Source: Escherichia coli (GTDB lineage: Bacteria > Pseudomonadota > Gammaproteobacteria > Enterobacterales > Enterobacteriaceae). From it: a stretch of 64,000 nt of DNA. Numbering within the stretch: the first letter of the stretch is position 1; the number at the start of each line of letters is the position of its first letter. This document shows positions 14,517 to 23,094 of the stretch, piece after piece. The stretch lies in the NCBI GenBank assembly GCA_029351405.1, contig GCA_029351405.1_4841.1; one strand, 5' to 3'. Under the pieces are notes generated by a model. That model had not been told where the DNA came from. It did no database searches and was given only the letters and a program-made list of their open reading frames with translations. Both the position numbers and the translations under genes were made by a program.

Positions 14517-14630
14517 GATGTAATCTTCCTGTTTCAGTTCAAATGTGCGCCCCGTTTGCCAGGGCGCTTCGTTTAAGTGAGGTCAATATACGCTGGATTG
14601 AGTTATTGAAGAACGAAGTAAAGGGAATCT

Positions 14631-15854
14631 TTATTCAGGTTTCTTCAAACGGTCCAGCAAATTGACGGAACCACGTTTGAGCACGACTTCATCACAGCGC
14701 TTTTTGTATTCCCCACCGCCGTCATAGCTGACCTTGCCCCGAGGTTTTTCACCGCGCCCAACCGCCTCAACACAGCGGGTGTACTTGCTCAGTTCACAGA
14801 ACATGTTCTCCAGCTGCATAACGTTCATGCACTGATCTACAGGCTCTTCAGCCGACCAGAATTGCTCACGAACATACCCATATTGGGAATACACCGCGTC
14901 CTGATTGTCCCGCAACCAGAAGATGCATTCTTCATGCGTCATGCCATCTTTGTCCTGGAACATCAGATCAATCCCTGCGCGACAGCCTGGTCCAGCAACC
15001 GTGAAGTGGTTCTCACTGAAAGGATATCCAGGAATGTACGTGAAATCAACCCAGATCTGATAGGCCAGGAATGGACCAAGCCCTTCGATGTCGTCATACA
15101 TGCGCTGGTATACTTCCAGAGGAGTACCAAGGCGCAGCAAGTCATGGAAATAGTTTGGATACTTGTTGACGAATGCCTTCAGAGAACGGATAACACGCAT
15201 CGGCATGTATGGTTCCCATCCCTCGATGGTATATTCACCAGGATTCTCTTCGACCAGCTTTTTGGCGACCTTGTAGTCCATCTCGTCCACAATACCCTGG
15301 CCAACGCGATACACTTTCACCATCATCCCACCGAAGCGCTGCTCCTTGTGGTTGACAACCAGCTCAGGGAAAGCCAGGCATTGCTTCAGGCCGCCCGTGT
15401 TGAAGGCATTGGTGAATACCTTACCGCCGTCGGCCTCGAACTTCTGAAGTCGTTCGCGGGTTGCATCAAGGTTGATCTTGGCGAATTCTTTGATCGTCAT
15501 CGCGCCGCCGATAGCCTGGATTGGATCCCAGAGGTTGAACATGCGGAACAACACGCAGTTGAACATCTTGTCGGCCATACCCAGAGCATCGTTGTTGACG
15601 ATGTTGTTGATCAGGTTGAGAGACTGCCTGTCGTGCTCTCTCCGGACATTACAGAACTTGACCTGCCGTAATATGGGATTATCAGTCCAAGGAGCAGGAA
15701 GGCGCTGGACATCCTTCTTGACGTGGATCTGATAACGATCGCGCATCCATTCGTAAGACAGGCGGGTATGGGTCGGACTGAGAACCGGTTTGGCCGACTT
15801 TATCTTTTCTTCACGGACACCGCAGTACGGGACGTCTAGGGCTTTATCTTTCAT
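14631..15854 (-). CDS. hypothetical protein (407 aa)
   Basis: ATG with AGAGGA RBS; no recognisable catalytic motif by eye. Confidence 0.6.
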   Translation of the reverse strand: MKDKALDVPYCGVREEKIKSAKPVLSPTHTRLSYEWMRDRYQIHVKKDVQRLPAPWTDNPILRQVKFCNVRREHDRQSLNLINNIVNNDALGMADKMFNCVLFRMFNLWDPIQAIGGAMTIKEFAKINLDATRERLQKFEADGGKVFTNAFNTGGLKQCLAFPELVVNHKEQRFGGMMVKVYRVGQGIVDEMDYKVAKKLVEENPGEYTIEGWEPYMPMRVIRSLKAFVNKYPNYFHDLLRLGTPLEVYQRMYDDIEGLGPFLAYQIWVDFTYIPGYPFSENHFTVAGPGCRAGIDLMFQDKDGMTHEECIFWLRDNQDAVYSQYGYVREQFWSAEEPVDQCMNVMQLENMFCELSKYTRCVEAVGRGEKPRGKVSYDGGGEYKKRCDEVVLKRGSVNLLDRLKKPE

Positions 15855-17731: not shown

Positions 17732-18721
17732 TCACTTCCACTTGATGTTGAGCATGACATTGGTCAGGAAAAACACAGCATGCAACCAGACATCGCCGAC
17801 TTGGCGGTGTTCAATCTGAGACTGACCACATACGCACACCAGATCAGGGATAGACTCATTCTGAACCAACATTTGCTTCTCTTTATCCTGTGGCACACAG
17901 AACTGGAAGAAGCGGGAATAGAAGTCTTCAGTGATATAGTTCTGGTTGTCGGTCACCCACTGCTTCATCCCAGCCCAGTCATTATCCTTCAACATATTCA
18001 CCAACATGCCCATATCGGCCGATTTTAACACAGCCAGTGCACGTTCGTCGATCTTGCCGTAAGTGGTGACGTTATCCTGTAGAACACCCATGATGCGGCG
18101 GTTATCAGGGAAATGGCGCTTGACAATAGCAGCCAACACAGGAGGGTCATACTCAACACCTTCGCTGCGAAGGATTTCAGCACAGCGGCGCATGAACTGA
18201 AGTTTGACCTCATCAGCCTCAGTCTCATTCCAGATAAAGTCGATTTCACGGCAACGAGAGCGCAGAGGTTCGTTCACACGTTGCTTGGCGTTGGTGGTCA
18301 GGATGAATGAACAGTTCTTGGAGACCTTCTCCACAATACCCTTCAGCGACTCCTGCGCCGCCATAGACAGACGCTCTACTTCGTCGAGGATAACGACTTT
18401 GCGACCACCGAATACACTCACACCAGTAGAGTACTGAATCACGCGGTCACGGATAACGTCGATACTGTTGTCCAGGGATGCGTTGATCATCAGTGGTTGC
18501 TTACAACCGATCTCGTTACACACAGCCAGGGCGGAGGTAGTCTTGCCAGTACCAGGCTGAGGGGAGTAGAACAGCATAGACGGGATGTTACCGTTGCCGC
18601 TGGTGATGTAGCCATGGATTTTAGCGCGGACGTCTTGAGGGATGATAATCTCGTCCAGGTTGTCAGGGCGGAAACGGTTCTCCCAGGCGTACTGGTCTTT
18701 TACAATCGTGATATTAGACAT
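17732..18721 (-). CDS. clamp loader large subunit (gp44-like AAA+ ATPase)
   Basis: 329 aa; Walker A PQPGTGKTT, Walker B VVILDEV, SRC motif (SRCREIDF) of RFC-type clamp loaders. Confidence 0.85.
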   Translation of the reverse strand: MSNITIVKDQYAWENRFRPDNLDEIIIPQDVRAKIHGYITSGNGNIPSMLFYSPQPGTGKTTSALAVCNEIGCKQPLMINASLDNSIDVIRDRVIQYSTGVSVFGGRKVVILDEVERLSMAAQESLKGIVEKVSKNCSFILTTNAKQRVNEPLRSRCREIDFIWNETEADEVKLQFMRRCAEILRSEGVEYDPPVLAAIVKRHFPDNRRIMGVLQDNVTTYGKIDERALAVLKSADMGMLVNMLKDNDWAGMKQWVTDNQNYITEDFYSRFFQFCVPQDKEKQMLVQNESIPDLVCVCGQSQIEHRQVGDVWLHAVFFLTNVMLNIKWK

Positions 18722-19377
18722 TATGTATTTCCATGATATAGTTTACAGAACAGAACCCAAGCGTCGTCATCATACGGGTTCCAGCCCTCTTTGAATTTGT
18801 TTAACATACTCGTTGCGGTGTTCTCTTTAATAGAGAACAAACGGGCAATTCTATGGCACCCATCACCAGTAGAAACCCAGTGATCATACACTACCCCAGC
18901 CTTTAACCACATCGGTCTGGTGTTGTGTAGCAGCGCAGCCCCGGTGTCCCAGGGTTTTATTCCTGCGGCGGGGTGGCTTTTACCAGTTCTTCCGTGCATG
19001 GGATGAAGATTCCCAGACTTGCCCTTCAACCAACTCGAGACACCAACTCGGTGATGTTTAGGTCCCGCTGACCTACCGTTGGCGATACCACAACCCCGTG
19101 GCTGAAATGATTTGTTTAAACATTTTGGGTGATCAATGTTCTCACTAATCAACTGCTGCTCTCTCCAATATGCTTCTTCTGGGGAGTCAAACAGTTCTAC
19201 GAATTCTACATCAAAGAAATCAGAACCTTTCTTAGATATGATTTCCTTGACTGTTTGTGAAGAAGTGAAATATGAAGTGAACAATTGTAAAGGATGTGCA
19301 CCCAATTTCGTTCTAGAACCAAAATAGAAAGAACCATCCTTCCCTAACAAATGATATACAAACGGTTGGTTCCTCAT
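18721..19377 (-). CDS. GIY-YIG-like homing endonuclease gene inserted between the clamp and clamp-loader genes
   Basis: ORF trimmed to ATG 19377 with GAGG RBS; N-terminus FVYHLLGKDGSFYFGS resembles the GIY...YIG motif. Confidence 0.45.
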   Translation of the reverse strand: MRNQPFVYHLLGKDGSFYFGSRTKLGAHPLQLFTSYFTSSQTVKEIISKKGSDFFDVEFVELFDSPEEAYWREQQLISENIDHPKCLNKSFQPRGCGIANGRSAGPKHHRVGVSSWLKGKSGNLHPMHGRTGKSHPAAGIKPWDTGAALLHNTRPMWLKAGVVYDHWVSTGDGCHRIARLFSIKENTATSMLNKFKEGWNPYDDDAWVLFCKLYHGNT

Positions 19378-19409
19378 TTCAGCCTCGTGTAGAAGAATCA
19401 TTTCAAATA

Positions 19410-19428
19410 GGCGGGGAACTCCCCCGCC
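19410..19428 (-). terminator. hairpin GGCGGGG-AACT-CCCCGCC plus TATTTGAAA
   Basis: Between the sliding clamp gene and the endonuclease gene. Confidence 0.45.
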
Positions 19429-19458
19429 CACACATTATAGCATCAGGCTGGAGATTGA

Positions 19459-20127
19459 TTACTCAATCTGTGCGCCGACGAAGTAATTGATCGTCGCGTC
19501 GGATGATTGGAAGTTCACCATCTGTAGATCAGCACATGCACGCAGAGTGTAGTTGCCTTCGATCATTTTCAGGTTGGCAACATCCAGCGGCATTACGAAG
19601 TCCGGCAGCGCGGTTTCGCCCAGCTCAACAGTGTAATTGTTGGAGTTGTCCAGGGTAGTGGTGGTTGCAACCAGGCGTGTTTTGCCACCCTGAGCAACCA
19701 GACGCACAGTCTTATGTCCTAGGGTAGAGCAGGCGCGGGTCAGTTCTTTCATCTTCTCTGGAGTGATGATCGCTTCAAAATCGACAGACGGCAGTTCAAT
19801 GGTGTCAGCCGGAACAACAGTGAGTTCTTTAGCAGAACGCCAGAATTGCAGCTGAGAGCTTTCGCCTTTCAACAGGATGTAGTCCTGATGGAATTCGGCT
19901 TTGGCACCTTTGAAGGAAGGTAGGCGCTGGATGGCCAGAAGTTTGGTCAGGTCCAGAATCGGGAACTCAAACGGGAAGTCTTCTTCGATCTGCGCCACGG
20001 CGATCACAGTAGAAGAATCATTAATACTGCGCAGCATCTTGCCCGGTGTCAGAACGATAGATGGGTTGATGGTCTCAAAGTTGGCCAGCAACTGAAGTGT
20101 ACGTTCAGAGAGAGTGATCTCTTGCAT
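19459..20127 (-). CDS. sliding clamp (gp45-like)
   Basis: 222 aa, the size of T4 gp45; N-terminus LQLLANFETINPSIVL resembles gp45; sits upstream of the clamp-loader genes. Confidence 0.7.
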   Translation of the reverse strand: MQEITLSERTLQLLANFETINPSIVLTPGKMLRSINDSSTVIAVAQIEEDFPFEFPILDLTKLLAIQRLPSFKGAKAEFHQDYILLKGESSQLQFWRSAKELTVVPADTIELPSVDFEAIITPEKMKELTRACSTLGHKTVRLVAQGGKTRLVATTTTLDNSNNYTVELGETALPDFVMPLDVANLKMIEGNYTLRACADLQMVNFQSSDATINYFVGAQIE

Positions 20128-20317
20128 TTGTATGTATCCTCAAAATATAGTGGGGGTTCAAGTCATGTTTGACGCAATCTAGTATCGCTGTGTTTTGCTT
20201 ATAGAACAAGTGGCAAATTGCGCTACGCGTTATTAATAAATGCCTTCGGCATTTATGGACTTTATTAAAGATAATAACCTTTATTAATCCTATTCGCTTC
20301 GCTCATAAAACAAATAC

Positions 20318-20344
20318 TCGTTGTTCGCTAACGCTCACAACTCG
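20318..20344 (+). repeat. 27-nt conserved intergenic element, copy 1
   Basis: TCGTTGTTCGCTAACGCTCACAACTCG, followed by TATAAT; 126 nt upstream of the plus-strand gene at 20470. Confidence 0.5.
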
Positions 20345-20469
20345 TATAATACCACGCCGTTGTTCAACAAGAAAGCAGTTTTTATTCAACAGCAAAAATA
20401 ATTTATTTGGTCTAAACATGCACGCGAAATAATATGTATGTCATGTTAACCAACACACGAGAGTAATAT

Positions 20470-20814
20470 ATGAAACAGTTCGTAGGATTATACGCAGTTG
20501 GGTGTAGTAAGCCAGACGCCAACACCCCAGTTTATCTGACACAGCTGGCGTCAGACAAGAACTTACCATCGGAACCGCGATTTGTCCCCCTTGGCTTGAT
20601 GACAGGCCTGAAAGTTGGTCTGTATGTCGGCGTTGTGACGTTTGAAAACGGCATCGAAGCGAAGGTTCTGCCATTCAAATTGGGTAGTGAACAAATGCTG
20701 AAGGATACGATCAGTGAACACCTGAACTCACAATGTCTGGCTTCTCTGGATAAATTGTTCGGCGTAGTATCTGATGAAGGCGAGGCCACCCCCGCCTATG
20801 TGAATCAAGATTAA
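20470..20814 (+). CDS. hypothetical protein (114 aa), plus-strand
   Basis: ATG with GAGAG RBS after a 340-bp AT-rich intergenic region; convergent with the helicase gene. Confidence 0.5.
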   Translation: MKQFVGLYAVGCSKPDANTPVYLTQLASDKNLPSEPRFVPLGLMTGLKVGLYVGVVTFENGIEAKVLPFKLGSEQMLKDTISEHLNSQCLASLDKLFGVVSDEGEATPAYVNQD

Positions 20815-22319
20815 TCGTGATTACCCAGCGCCACCTTCATGAACTCCACAGGGTGGCGCTCTGCCAGGTAAAACTTGTAACGCTCATGAGAGTGCCTAAG
20901 AGCGTGGTTCGTGCTGGCGTTATACGATGCATCATCAACTAAGTCCCATATCCACGCAACGTCCTTAGAGGAGTGCTGACGCATCAGACGACCCAATGTC
21001 TGTATGACGCGGATATATGACTTGCTCGGGTGTGCCAGTACAAGGTGGTGCAGCTTCTTGATTGACACACCCTGCTGCATTGTTCCGTATGATGCTAACA
21101 GGGTGATGTCCTCTCCATCCTCCATCGCTTTCTGTATGCGACGGCGGTCTTCTATCTTCACTTCCCCGTTGATGACAAACACGTTGGGCTTGACTGCGCT
21201 CAGCATATCATACACGACCATCATGTGACCATCAATACGCTCGAACATGATGGCCACGTTTCCTTTCAGATTCAGTGCCATCTTGGCGATCAGTTCGTTG
21301 CGGGACTGGTGTGTAATAAGGTATTCTATTTCCTTGGAATAATCCCCGTCCAGACCAACGGCATCCGCCGGAGTGTGCTTCAGCTGAATCATCTTCACTT
21401 TGATGTCAGTGGCGTACCCGAGATTGATAAGGTCGCGAGCCGTGATGATCTTATGGTACGCCCCGAAGTGAGCCACCACCTGAAGCCCGGCAACTTTGGT
21501 GTTCGCCAGCGTACCTGTAACCCCCAGGCGCTGGTCGGCATAGATGCAGTTGTTTAGGATGTAAGACAGTTTATCAGACTTGGAGGTGTGCACTTCGTCC
21601 ACCACGATATCACCGAACTGGTGGAACCATTCCTTCGGCTGGTCTTGAATGCCTTGCCATGTACTGATGACGATTGGTTTGCTGATCTCCTTTGTCGCGC
21701 CCTCAAAAATCAGCTGGGTGTTAGCAACGGGCTTCCAATCACTGCCATGAGCATACTCTTCGAAGTTGTCGTACAGCTGAGTGACTAGGTGGATTGACGG
21801 CACCACGATAAGCGTCTTCAGAGGACTTTCGAGAGCTTCTCTGCGCCGCCTGTAGTACCGCGCCATGACATACAGAATAAAGGACTTACCGGCACTCGTA
21901 GCCAGTTCACAGACGCATCTGGTTTGACGCATAGCCTTGGCGATGGTGTCGTACTGGTAGTCACGAGTCTCGGCATCGATATATTCGTGATTTTCGGTGC
22001 GGATCTTTGGATGCAGACTGTCGATGAAGTCACGGATTTCTTCATCTGGGATTTCCTGAATGTACTTCAGTGTCGGATCCAGTTCAATTGTGTATCCGTT
22101 GTTCTTACAGAACTTAAATACCTCAAACAGCAGACCGATATCGATTAGACCAGATGACTTGGTAAATAGGCGGACAACCCCGTCCCATTTAGAGAAGGGG
22201 TTGGGAACGAAGTTCGGGTCTTCGAATTTGAAGTAATCATTAAGTTCTTCCCTGATAGAAAGATCTGCGATGCAACGCATGCGGACTTCGTTAACCTTAA
22301 CAATCTGAATGTCTGCCAT
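20811..22319 (-). CDS. UvsW-like SF2 DNA helicase
   Basis: ORF trimmed to ATG 22319 (GGGAG RBS); ATP-binding GKS loop, VVDEVH (DExH) box, C-terminal helicase motifs; late-promoter motif upstream. Confidence 0.75.
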   Translation of the reverse strand: MADIQIVKVNEVRMRCIADLSIREELNDYFKFEDPNFVPNPFSKWDGVVRLFTKSSGLIDIGLLFEVFKFCKNNGYTIELDPTLKYIQEIPDEEIRDFIDSLHPKIRTENHEYIDAETRDYQYDTIAKAMRQTRCVCELATSAGKSFILYVMARYYRRRREALESPLKTLIVVPSIHLVTQLYDNFEEYAHGSDWKPVANTQLIFEGATKEISKPIVISTWQGIQDQPKEWFHQFGDIVVDEVHTSKSDKLSYILNNCIYADQRLGVTGTLANTKVAGLQVVAHFGAYHKIITARDLINLGYATDIKVKMIQLKHTPADAVGLDGDYSKEIEYLITHQSRNELIAKMALNLKGNVAIMFERIDGHMMVVYDMLSAVKPNVFVINGEVKIEDRRRIQKAMEDGEDITLLASYGTMQQGVSIKKLHHLVLAHPSKSYIRVIQTLGRLMRQHSSKDVAWIWDLVDDASYNASTNHALRHSHERYKFYLAERHPVEFMKVALGNHD

Positions 22320-22340
22320 ACAAAATCTCCCAAGGATTAT

Positions 22341-22351
22341 GGGGTATTTAG
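22341..22351 (-). promoter_or_regulatory. late-promoter-like motif CTAAATAcccc
   Basis: Minus-strand CTAAATACCCC about 25 nt upstream of the UvsW-like start. Confidence 0.45.
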
Positions 22352-23094
22352 TGATCCGGCCAGACTCCGTTTTGTTCTTTATCCATGCGATGATACAGAC
22401 GAACACGCTCAAACATCTTTGTCAGAATGTCATCACGGTTGAACTCAATGATGGTTGGTAGAGGGGAAGACTCGTTGGCAATCACGTTGATGAGGCGGGT
22501 GATCTTGACACCGAACATCTGCTGGAACATGACCGAATATAAACACAGCTGGATACTGTAATCCTCGATCATGCCCCGCGTCTTCATAGTGTTCGATGTC
22601 TTGAAGTCGATGACAGCAGGTTTACCCTCATAAACCCCGATAAGGTCTACACGACCTGCAAGACCAAGCACCTCGCTATATAATGGGATCTCCTGAGCAT
22701 AGATCTTTGTCATCTTGTTCAGGTAAGGGAACAGCTGCTTGAACATGAACATGTATTCGCCAGCCGCTTCCAACACTTCTTTCATTGGGCGGTTCTTTAG
22801 ATACAGTTCACACGCAAGGTGCAGCTTCTCCCCTCGGTCAGCACAGCGCATGGTCTCAAGATCAGCGGCCTCTGCGCCCAGCTTCTTCCTCCAAGACTCA
22901 AGCCATTCATGATCTCCAGTGCGTCCCAGCATAGTCGTGACGGATGTCAGTTTAACACCAGACGGTGAAACGTAATGACGACCATTCTCCGTCGTAACAC
23001 ACTCCAGTTCCTTGTAAGGAAGTTCGTATTGCTGGAATGTGTAATGACGGTTTTCGAAGTCATTCAGCTTGCGTAGATCCTGGAGAGATGCCAT
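22348..23094 (-). CDS. PD-(D/E)XK (RecB/Cas4-like) nuclease
   Basis: 248 aa; GRVDLIGVYEGKPAVIDFKTS gives a D ... D-x-K catalytic arrangement. Confidence 0.55.
   Translation of the reverse strand: MASLQDLRKLNDFENRHYTFQQYELPYKELECVTTENGRHYVSPSGVKLTSVTTMLGRTGDHEWLESWRKKLGAEAADLETMRCADRGEKLHLACELYLKNRPMKEVLEAAGEYMFMFKQLFPYLNKMTKIYAQEIPLYSEVLGLAGRVDLIGVYEGKPAVIDFKTSNTMKTRGMIEDYSIQLCLYSVMFQQMFGVKITRLINVIANESSPLPTIIEFNRDDILTKMFERVRLYHRMDKEQNGVWPDH

What the first reader, a model, noticed from the sequence alone, without database searches (positions are those of the whole stretch)
18721..19377. GIY-YIG-like endonuclease gene inserted between the sliding clamp and clamp-loader genes
In T4 the order is 45-44-62-regA. 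Here a 218-aa ORF with an N-terminal VYHLLGKDGSFYFGS (GIY...YIG-like) motif sits between the gp45-like and gp44-like genes, with its own hairpin and RBS, and overlaps the gp44-like start by one nucleotide. This is the typical footprint of a free-standing homing endonuclease that has invaded a conserved operon.
Basis: partly seen in the sequence, partly recalled or inferred. Interest (0 to 1): 0.5.

Follow-up and report, generated by a model that had tools for sequence, protein, structure and literature searches.

The report
Mobile GIY-YIG endonuclease gene in clamp operon
A selfish, Seg-type GIY-YIG homing endonuclease gene has slipped exactly between the ribosome-binding site and the start codon of the clamp-loader gene of an Ackermannviridae phage; this is an ordinary kind of element, but a very clean example.

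Summary
The 218-aa ORF is real. It lies at 19377..18721 on the minus strand, between gp45 and gp44, and shares one nucleotide with gp44 (TAATG). The window is an Agtrevirus-like Ackermannviridae phage, 98.9% identical to Escherichia phage YX22.

**Mobility.**
- Only 16 of 273 related phage records carry the gene. The closest relatives, 98% identical, lack exactly 656 bp.
- Synonymous divergence of the gene is 8-16 times lower than that of the flanking genes.
- dN/dS is 0.09-0.18.
- Limestoneviruses keep a 51-nt remnant, a deletion scar.

**Correction.** The hairpin and RBS are not the insert's own. They are gp44's native signals, captured by the insert. gp44 now starts from a weak GGAA inside the endonuclease's 3' end, by coupling.

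**Candidate immunity site.** One synonymous position (gp44 nt 42, GAG vs GAA) separates all 10 carriers from all 21 non-carriers.

This is a new member of a known kind; interest is modest.

The parts
18721..19377 (-). Homing endonuclease CDS (218 aa, ATG 19377, TAA 18723-18721)
   Evidence: ORF found. PHROG 314 'homing endonuclease', 6.8e-16. 782 homologues. dN/dS 0.09-0.18.
18722..19377 (-). The inserted segment: exactly 656 bp absent from HEG-less relatives. The boundary can slide within a repeated AATG.
   Evidence: Junction comparison with A221, Ag3, EspM4VN, pertopsoe, SKML-39, MK-13, fGh-Ecl02 and ChubbyThor.
19078..19377 (-). GIY-YIG catalytic domain (aa 1-100): VYH = 'GIY', YFG = 'YIG'; Y8, Y18, G20, R22, Y36, S39, S40, E73, N88
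18943..19077 (-). Low-confidence linker (aa 101-145) with two degenerate NUMOD3-like GxxxHPxxG repeats
   Evidence: pLDDT 41-65. Aligns with NUMOD3 repeats of homologues. 23/57 homologues hit Pfam NUMOD3. No direct Pfam hit for this protein.
18724..18942 (-). C-terminal helical DNA-binding-type domain (aa 146-218), helix-turn-helix-like
19378..19458 (-). Native gp45-gp44 spacer (81 nt), now driving the endonuclease. Contains TGCTATAAT (19434-19442), hairpin (19410-19429) and SD GAGG (19383-19386).
   Evidence: Same spacer in HEG-less A221 and Ag3, differing only in the hairpin loop at 19420. Hairpin conserved, with variable loop, across HEG-less Agtrevirus and Kuttervirus.
18729..18732 (-). 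Weak SD-like GGAA inside the endonuclease 3' end, 8 nt before the gp44 ATG; replacement initiation signal for gp44
   Evidence: Read directly from the sequence. In Limestoneviruses the native RBS is deleted and only this remnant (GGGA variant) precedes gp44. Function is inferred.
18668..18686 (-). Candidate recognition/immunity region in gp44 codons 12-18. Position 18680 (gp44 nt 42) is G (GAG) on the coding strand in all carriers and A (GAA) in all non-carriers.
   Evidence: It is the only perfectly separating column among about 2,100 aligned columns of gp45, gp44 and gp62: 10 HEG+ against 20 HEG-. One further HEG- metagenome contig also has GAA. The role is inferred, not tested.
18404..18707 (-). 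Possible co-conversion tract in the 5' third of gp44
   Evidence: 19 mismatches to A221 in 304 nt, against 1 in the preceding 500 nt. Kutterviruses S115 and rabagast carry Agtrevirus-type gp44 codons 6-17 next to the insert. Similar mismatch clusters occur elsewhere in the window, so this is suggestive only.
19459..20127 (-). gp45-like sliding clamp (upstream neighbour)
17732..18721 (-). gp44-like clamp loader (downstream neighbour; start overlaps the endonuclease stop)

Best explanation
The ORF is an intact, free-standing, Seg-type GIY-YIG homing endonuclease gene that has recently moved between Ackermannviridae lineages.

**Architecture (shown).** The protein has an N-terminal GIY-YIG nuclease domain, a flexible linker with degenerate NUMOD3-like repeats, and a C-terminal helix-turn-helix-type DNA-binding domain. 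This is the same modular plan as I-TevI and the T4 Seg proteins.

**Insertion (shown).** The gene sits exactly between gp44's ribosome-binding site and gp44's ATG. It is therefore translated from gp44's native initiation region. It hands ribosomes on to gp44 through a TAATG overlap plus a weak GGAA in its own 3' end.

**Mechanism (inferred).**
1. In a mixed infection the enzyme binds and cuts the insert-less allele of a related phage, within the first ~55 nt of gp44.
2. The break is repaired from the insert-carrying genome. This copies the gene and a short stretch of gp44 (co-conversion).
3. Carriers protect themselves through sequence differences in that stretch. The synonymous G at gp44 nt 42 (GAG instead of GAA) is the prime candidate.
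For: **Fold and family**
- Foldseek top three hits are I-TevI, prob 1.0, TM 0.63-0.68.
- The family profile scores 46-64 bits against T4 SegA, SegB, SegC, SegD, SegE and I-TevII, and 181 bits against LIMEstone1 F-LimVI.
- 37/57 homologues hit Pfam SegE_GIY-YIG and 23/57 hit NUMOD3.
- Y8, Y18, G20, Y36, E73 and N88 are (near-)invariant; R22 is R or K in 55/56.

**Sporadic, precise insertion**
- 16 of 273 records carry it. A221, RPN242 and AV101, at 98% identity, do not.
- The indel is exactly 656 bp, and the native spacer is intact in the empty sites.

**Recent transfer**
- Window vs pSal-SNUABM-02: dS 0.056 for the gene, against 0.92 (gp44) and 0.51 (gp45).
- Window vs Kuttervirus allotria: dS 0.195, against 1.64 and 1.43.
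- dN/dS is 0.09-0.18. GC is 44%, against 50-51% in the flanks.

**Loss**
- Limestoneviruses retain the last ~51 nt, fused at an AATGA microhomology (also metagenome contig L040).

**Target side**
- A single separating column lies at gp44 nt 42.
- Foreign gp44 codons 6-17 lie next to the insert in S115 and rabagast, and foreign codons 12-17 in allotria and KE31.
- No associated site exists in gp45 or the spacer.
Against: - Direct Pfam scores for this protein are below the curated cut-offs: GIY-YIG 14.6 vs 22.6 bits; SegE_GIY-YIG 18 vs 25.
- There is no direct PDB sequence hit and no NCBIfam hit.
- The structure is a prediction with mean pLDDT 75.8 and a disordered linker.
- The equivalent of I-TevI's Arg27 is unresolved. 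hhalign places it opposite L32. R22 is a candidate only.
- No cleavage, target site or homing was tested.
- The nt-42 association rests on roughly 3-4 independent lineage contrasts, and the site lies only 42 nt from the insert. Hitch-hiking cannot be excluded.
- Divergence clusters like the one next to the insert occur elsewhere in the window.
- These phages carry hypermodified thymidines (PMC8472413). The effect on cleavage is unknown.
Confidence: 0.85

Rival explanations
1. A domesticated, no longer mobile GIY-YIG nuclease that the phage keeps for another job. Examples would be degrading host or competitor DNA, as T4 EndoII does, or pure exclusion of co-infecting relatives without self-propagation.
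For: - Strong purifying selection, dN/dS 0.09-0.18.
- The gene is wired into an essential, highly regulated replication operon.
Against: - The family profile does not hit EndoII but does hit SegA-E and I-TevII.
- The gene is missing from 94% of relatives, including 98%-identical ones.
- Its dS is 8-16 times lower than that of its flanks, so it has moved.
- It has a sequence-specific-type C-terminal DNA-binding module.
Confidence: 0.07
2. A decaying or catalytically dead endonuclease relic, retained only because gp44 translation now depends on reading through it.
For: - gp44 lost direct access to its native RBS and is coupled by TAATG.
- Homing endonuclease genes are expected to degenerate after fixation.
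- A deletion scar exists in Limestoneviruses.
Against: - All ten copies examined are intact 218-aa ORFs.
- Every conserved catalytic-type residue is present.
- dN/dS is 0.09-0.18 across both domains, which would not be expected for a mere spacer.
- Limestoneviruses show gp44 can be expressed with only the last ~51 nt, so the full ORF is not needed for gp44.
Confidence: 0.05
3. An ancestral Ackermannviridae gene at this position that has been lost many times, with no horizontal movement.
For: - It is present in two subfamilies: Aglimvirinae, and Cvivirinae (Kuttervirus).
- Loss is documented by the Limestonevirus scar.
Against: - Empty sites carry the intact native spacer, joined seamlessly to the gp44 ATG, with no scar.
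- Synonymous divergence of the gene between subfamilies (0.195) is far below that of gp44 and gp45 (1.4-1.6).
- Sister phages at 99.4% identity differ by presence/absence: allotria vs pertopsoe.
Confidence: 0.03

Closest known systems
T4 Seg endonucleases (SegA-E; for biology also SegF and SegG): free-standing GIY-YIG homing endonucleases
   Same: - Homologous catalytic domain: the family profile scores SegA 64, SegE 58, SegC 56, SegB 54 and SegD 46 bits.
- The closest Pfam model is SegE_GIY-YIG.
- About 200-220 aa, free-standing, and packed tightly between conserved genes. T4 segF likewise overlaps gene 56.
- Sporadic among relatives.
- From established knowledge (SegF: Belle et al. 2002; SegG: Liu et al. 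2003; SegB: PMC2330249, cited), these enzymes cut the neighbouring gene of insert-less relatives and spread by repair with co-conversion.
   Different: - Different signature after the YIG motif: YFTSS here, against GYMGSG in Seg proteins.
- Different phage family (Ackermannviridae, not Straboviridae) and different locus. T4 has nothing between 45 and 44.
- Inserted precisely between a host gene's RBS and its ATG.
- Activity untested.
F-LimVI of Dickeya phage LIMEstone1 and its Ackermannviridae paralogues (annotated GIY-YIG / I-TevI-like; PMC3296691)
   Same: - Closest full-length paralogue family: about 36% identity over 95% of the length; 181 bits to the family profile.
- Same three-part architecture.
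- Same virus family, which is known to carry 14-25 homing endonuclease genes.
   Different: - Different insertion site, about 3.5 kb away.
- The LIMEstone1 paper lists 14 endonucleases, none at the 45/44 junction.
- Here LIMEstone1 is shown to carry only a 51-nt remnant at that junction.
I-TevI (T4 td intron endonuclease), the structural archetype
   Same: - Same spacing between the conserved Glu and Asn, 15 residues (E73-N88 vs E75-N90).
- Nuclease, long linker, then a C-terminal HTH.
   Different: - Only 16-20% identity, with a weak profile match (11.7 bits; hhalign E 1e-4).
- Not intron-encoded.
- No zinc finger is apparent in the linker.
- The Arg27 equivalent is unresolved.

Membership tests
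GIY-YIG nuclease superfamily | Alpha/beta fold with a three-stranded antiparallel sheet carrying the GIY and YIG strands | tested here: met
   [not shown]
GIY-YIG nuclease superfamily | Two motif tyrosines and the glycine (GIY ... YIG) | tested here: met
   VY8H ... Y18FG20. Y8, Y18 and G20 are present in 56/56 aligned homologues. hhalign pairs them with I-TevI Y6, Y17 and G19.
GIY-YIG nuclease superfamily | Metal-binding Glu and structural Asn | tested here: met
   E73 is present in 56/57 and N88 in 55/56 homologues. Their 15-residue spacing equals that of I-TevI E75-N90. Residue-by-residue superposition was not inspected.
GIY-YIG nuclease superfamily | Conserved catalytic Arg | tested here: inconclusive
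   R22 is R or K in 55/56 homologues. However, hhalign places I-TevI R27 opposite L32. Spatial equivalence was not checked.
GIY-YIG nuclease superfamily | Match to curated sequence models (Pfam PF01541 / PF19835) | tested here: inconclusive
   The protein itself is below the cut-offs: 14.6 vs 22.6 and 18 vs 25 bits. 37/57 homologues hit PF19835, and the family profile hits T4 SegA-E at 46-64 bits.
Free-standing (Seg-type) homing endonuclease genes | Not within an intron or intein; located between conserved genes | tested here: met
   It lies between gp45 and gp44, and both flanking genes are intact.
Free-standing (Seg-type) homing endonuclease genes | Sporadic presence among close relatives, with a precise empty site | tested here: met
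   16 of 273 records carry it. The indel is exactly 656 bp. Allotria vs pertopsoe are 99.4% identical in the flanks.
Free-standing (Seg-type) homing endonuclease genes | Evidence of horizontal movement independent of the flanks | tested here: met
   dS is 0.056 against 0.92/0.51 in one comparison, and 0.195 against 1.64/1.43 in another.
Free-standing (Seg-type) homing endonuclease genes | Co-conversion of flanking markers | tested here: inconclusive
   Foreign gp44 codons 6-17 lie next to the insert in Kutterviruses S115 and rabagast. There is a divergence cluster at 18404-18707 vs A221. The patterns are consistent but patchy, and similar clusters occur elsewhere.
Free-standing (Seg-type) homing endonuclease genes | Site-specific cleavage of the insert-less allele, immunity of the carrier, and super-Mendelian inheritance | not testable with these tools
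   Only a candidate immunity position was found (gp44 nt 42).
I-TevI-like modular architecture | Catalytic domain, flexible linker, and C-terminal HTH DNA-binding domain; NUMOD3 repeats | tested here: inconclusive
   [not shown]

The most novel reading that the evidence does not exclude
The cassette is more than a passenger. It has replaced the translation-initiation region of an essential gene: it uses gp44's native RBS for itself and supplies gp44 with a substitute RBS in its own 3' end. Limestoneviruses still depend on that remnant after deleting the rest. Separately, a single synonymous nucleotide in gp44 (nt 42, GAA to GAG) is the determinant that makes carriers immune to their own endonuclease. 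Together these would give a one-nucleotide, directly testable target/immunity switch for a new Seg-like enzyme acting on hypermodified DNA.
Probability: 0.35. Interest if true: 0.45.

Novelty: new member of a known kind. Interest (0 to 1): 0.3.

Why it matters
Free-standing homing endonucleases drive mosaicism and marker exclusion among related phages. Ackermannviridae are widely used as biocontrol and therapy candidates and are known to be rich in such genes, yet none has been characterised biochemically in the papers found here.

This locus shows all stages of the gain-spread-loss cycle in public genomes:
- empty site;
- intact insert in two subfamilies;
- deletion scar.

It also offers a specific, cheap experiment: one synonymous base as the predicted immunity switch.

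The locus further shows how an insert can rewire translation of an essential replication gene without harming it. None of this changes the general picture of homing endonuclease biology.

Tried and rejected
- **Direct PDB sequence search.** The only hit was a designed beta-propeller (Scone-E), through the chance repeat GKDGTIYFGS. Rejected as spurious.
- **NCBIfam.** No hit.
- **PADLOC.** Only a weak 'HEase' model (E 0.0035). No defence-system assignment.
- **Word-indexed homologue search.** Returned just two near-identical proteins. The exhaustive search was needed.
- **PDB search with the family profile.** Only a marginal hit (E 0.15) to a UPF0213 GIY-YIG-type protein.
- **Paralogue search within the 64-kb window.** None found.
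- **IMG/VR scan with the protein.** One extra carrier.
- **Metagenome scan for the gp44 target motif.** 11 loci, of which only 2 were true gp44. Both lack the intact endonuclease gene and both have GAA; one has an empty site and one carries the Limestone-type scar. This added little power.
- **Long-range RNA stem sequestering the RBS.** CAGCCU pairs with AGGCUG around the hairpin in the minimum-energy fold. The z-score is only -1.18, and the 5' arm is absent in Kutterviruses. Not adopted.
- **The hairpin as an intrinsic terminator.** The scan did not call it, because the T-run is too weak.
- **The 236-aa GTG-initiated ORF.** Rejected in favour of the ATG at 19377.
Full report
**1. What is in the sequence**

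The ORF exists as described, on the minus strand. Its ATG is at 19377 and its TAA at 18723-18721, giving 218 aa that begin MRNQPFVYHLLGKDGSFYFGS.

Its neighbours, all on the same strand, are:
- gp45-like sliding clamp, 20127..19459: PHROG 223, 1e-64.
- gp44-like clamp loader, 18721..17732: PHROG 168, 1.5e-104; Pfam Gp44_lid.
- gp62 (Phage_clamp_A).
- regA (Translat_reg, 2e-34).

T4 itself has 45-44-62-regA, with a 50-nt spacer and no gene between 45 and 44. The stop overlaps gp44's start as TAATG.

The window belongs to the Ackermannviridae, subfamily Aglimvirinae, and is Agtrevirus-like. It is 98.9% identical across this region to Escherichia phage YX22.

**2. Is it a GIY-YIG enzyme?**

Direct searches are weak:
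- Pfam GIY-YIG scores 14.6 bits (cut-off 22.6).
- SegE_GIY-YIG scores 18 bits (cut-off 25).
- NCBIfam returns nothing.
- The PDB sequence search returns nothing meaningful.
- PHROGs is clearer: phrog_314 'homing endonuclease', 6.8e-16, plus three C-terminal-domain families.

An exhaustive phmmer search found 782 homologues at E<=1e-3. The N-terminal region (about aa 1-100) and the C-terminal region (about aa 128-215) match different proteins independently, so the protein is modular.

In a 57-sequence alignment, 37 members hit Pfam SegE_GIY-YIG, 23 hit NUMOD3 and 2 hit the I-TevI DNA-binding domain. Y8, Y18, G20, Y36, S39, S40, E73 and N88 are invariant or nearly so. R22 is R or K in 55/56 sequences.

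A profile of that alignment gave these scores against proteins translated from the T4 and LIMEstone1 records:

| Protein | Bits |
|---|---|
| LIMEstone1 F-LimVI | 181 |
| T4 SegA | 64 |
| I-TevII | 61 |
| SegE | 58 |
| SegC | 56 |
| SegB | 54 |
| SegD | 46 |
| SegG | 20 |
| I-TevI | 12 |
| T4 EndoII | no hit |

An AlphaFold2 model built on the alignment has mean pLDDT 75.8:
- N-domain: pLDDT 80-95, with beta-beta-alpha-beta-alpha topology.
- Linker, aa 101-145: pLDDT 41-65.
- C-domain: five helices, pLDDT 85-91.

hhalign pairs Y8, Y18 and G20 with I-TevI Y6, Y17 and G19. Its first 60 residues were later confirmed against the T4 record.

The equivalent of I-TevI Arg27 is not settled. The linker's GKSGNLHPMHGRTGKSHPAAG aligns with NUMOD3 repeats of homologues, but it does not itself pass Pfam.

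Conclusion: this is a Seg-like member of the GIY-YIG superfamily with an I-TevI-like three-part plan.

**3. Is it an insertion?**

Of 273 phage records matching the region, only 16 contain the ORF (14 distinct genomes once RefSeq duplicates are removed). The same 16 are the only tblastn hits at 81% identity or above.

The closest relatives, A221, RPN242 and AV101, are 98% identical and lack it. Kuttervirus allotria carries it, while pertopsoe, 99.4% identical in the flanks, does not.

Junction comparison shows an exact 656-bp indel. In insert-less phages the 81-nt gp45-gp44 spacer runs ...CACGAGGCTGAA|ATGTCTAAT. In the window the same spacer runs ...CACGAGGCTGAA|ATGAGGAAC, and the insert ends ...ACATA|ATGTCTAAT.

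The spacer contains TGCTATAAT, the GGGCGGGG/CCCCGCC hairpin and the GAGG RBS. It is therefore gp44's native leader, present with or without the insert, and its hairpin is conserved across Agtrevirus and Kuttervirus. The insert has captured gp44's initiation region. gp44 now follows a TAATG overlap and a weak GGAA located 8 nt upstream, inside the endonuclease's last codons.

**4. Evidence of movement, selection and loss**

Synonymous divergence between the window and other carriers is much lower for the endonuclease than for its neighbours:

| Comparison | Endonuclease dS | gp44 dS | gp45 dS |
|---|---|---|---|
| vs pSal-SNUABM-02 | 0.056 | 0.92 | 0.51 |
| vs allotria (other subfamily) | 0.195 | 1.64 | 1.43 |

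The sliding-window identity profile shows the same pattern. dN/dS is 0.09-0.18, and all ten copies examined are intact 218-aa ORFs. GC content is 44%, against 50-51% in the flanks.

The gene is itself mosaic. CAU_YEP3 is 96% identical in the 5' part but 74% in the rest, and S115 differs mainly in the C-terminal domain.

LIMEstone1 has no endonuclease at this site. Its spacer reads ...TTTGAAATGACAGTGCTTGGGTTCTATTCTGTAAACTATATCATGGGAATTCATA|ATG. This is the native spacer fused, at an AATGA microhomology, to the last ~51 nt of the CAU_YEP3/S115-type allele, with the native RBS deleted. The other Limestoneviruses listed show the same ~25-nt-longer junction, and a metagenome contig carries the identical scar. 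Two things follow. The element was once present in that lineage and was lost. The endonuclease's 3' tail is also sufficient to start gp44 translation; that second point is an inference from the essential nature of the clamp loader.

**5. Where does it probably cut?**

I compared 10 carriers with 20 non-carriers. Across gp45 (669 nt), gp44 (990 nt) and the gp44 end plus gp62 stretch (459 nt), exactly one column separates the two groups. It is gp44 nt 42, the third position of codon 14: GAG in carriers and GAA in non-carriers (window 18680). The scar-bearing Limestoneviruses have GAA, as does one further non-carrier metagenome contig.

In Kutterviruses S115 and rabagast, gp44 codons 6-17 are of the Agtrevirus type. 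In allotria and KE31 only codons 12-17 are foreign, while codons 3-10, which lie between the insert and that patch, are native. CAU_YEP3 keeps only the G at nt 42. The foreign tract ends by about codon 20. No associated site exists in gp45 or the spacer.

Against A221, the window has 19 mismatches in 18404-18707, compared with 1 in the preceding 500 nt. Similar clusters occur elsewhere in the window, however.

My reading is inferred, at about 0.4-0.5 confidence. The enzyme recognises or cuts the empty allele within the first ~55 nt of gp44, repair co-converts a short stretch, and the G at nt 42 contributes to self-immunity. The contrasts number only three or four independent lineages, and the site is tightly linked to the insert. 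Hitch-hiking remains possible.

**6. Comparison with what is known**

Aglimvirinae genomes are already reported to contain 14-25 homing endonuclease genes (PMC8472413). LIMEstone1's 14 were catalogued with GIY-YIG, HNH and Hef-like classes, and none was listed at the 45/44 junction (PMC3296691).

RefSeq and PHROG-based annotation already label this ORF 'homing endonuclease' in allotria, rabagast, KE31 and CAU_YEP3. It is 'hypothetical protein' in YX22, PC3, SW16-7 and others. The SW16-7 paper lists the three clamp-related CDSs on either side (CDS148, 149 and 151) and does not mention the gene between them.

I found no biochemical characterisation in the library. The element is thus a new, uncharacterised member of a well-known kind. 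The closest experimentally studied relatives are the T4 Seg enzymes. Their mode of action is cleavage of a neighbouring gene in insert-less relatives, followed by marker exclusion and co-conversion. That knowledge comes from the literature, not from tests here.

**7. Verdict**

- The mechanism is well supported up to 'active-looking, recently mobile Seg-type GIY-YIG homing endonuclease gene' (0.85).
- The target, the immunity site and translational coupling are inferred.
- Interest is modest (0.3). The finding is unsurprising to a specialist, but it is an unusually tidy natural series: empty site, intact insert and scar, with a one-base, testable immunity prediction.

Noticed in passing
L010 (Dickeya phage LIMEstone1) 5423-5526; also L015, L040: The gp45-gp44 spacer of Limestoneviruses contains the last ~51 nt of this endonuclease gene. 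The remnant is fused to the native spacer at an AATGA microhomology, and the native gp44 RBS is deleted. The record annotates a 'putative middle promoter' inside this remnant. It looks like a deletion scar of a former insert.
   Followed up: partly
window 19378-19458 (minus strand): In the minimum-energy RNA fold, CAGCCU near the start of the spacer pairs with the RBS region AGGCUG, enclosing the conserved hairpin. A TGCTATAAT -10-like element lies between the two arms. This resembles T4-style RBS sequestration relieved by an internal promoter. The z-score is only -1.18, and the 5' arm is absent in Kutterviruses.
   Followed up: partly
window 18724-19377 vs L005, L011, L004: The endonuclease gene is itself mosaic. 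CAU_YEP3 is 96% identical at the 5' end but 74% over the rest. S115 diverges mainly in the C-terminal DNA-binding domain. This suggests recombination between endonuclease alleles or domain swapping.
   Followed up: partly
window 20470-20814 (+ strand ORF) and surroundings 20250-20810: The region between gp45 and the UvsW-like helicase holds a small opposite-strand ORF. It is the most divergent stretch of the neighbourhood: 46-53% identity to pSal-SNUABM-02 and the Kutterviruses, where the flanks are 75-95%. It is annotated inconsistently in relatives ('hypothetical', 'clamp loader subunit').
   Followed up: no
L010 583-1368, L011 373-1296, L005 1104-1322 (corresponding to about window 14520-14630): Relatives carry other homing endonuclease genes or fragments (F-LimVI, an HNH-like ORF, a 72-aa fragment) about 3.5 kb downstream of regA. 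YX22 has only a 115-nt spacer at that position, and the window appears to as well. This is a second sporadic insertion site nearby.
   Followed up: no
L010 6907-9501 vs window 20811-22412: The UvsW-like helicase gene is split in LIMEstone1 by a putative intron carrying I-LimI. The window has a single uninterrupted ORF.
   Followed up: no
L001 (Escherichia phage A221) 2512-2688: regA is annotated as only 177 nt in A221, against 465 nt in the window and other relatives. This may be a frameshift or an annotation problem in that record.
   Followed up: no
window 15200-15300: There is a sharp cluster of 36 mismatches to the otherwise 98-100% identical phage A221 within 100 nt. This is another local mosaic patch unrelated to the insert.
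   Followed up: no
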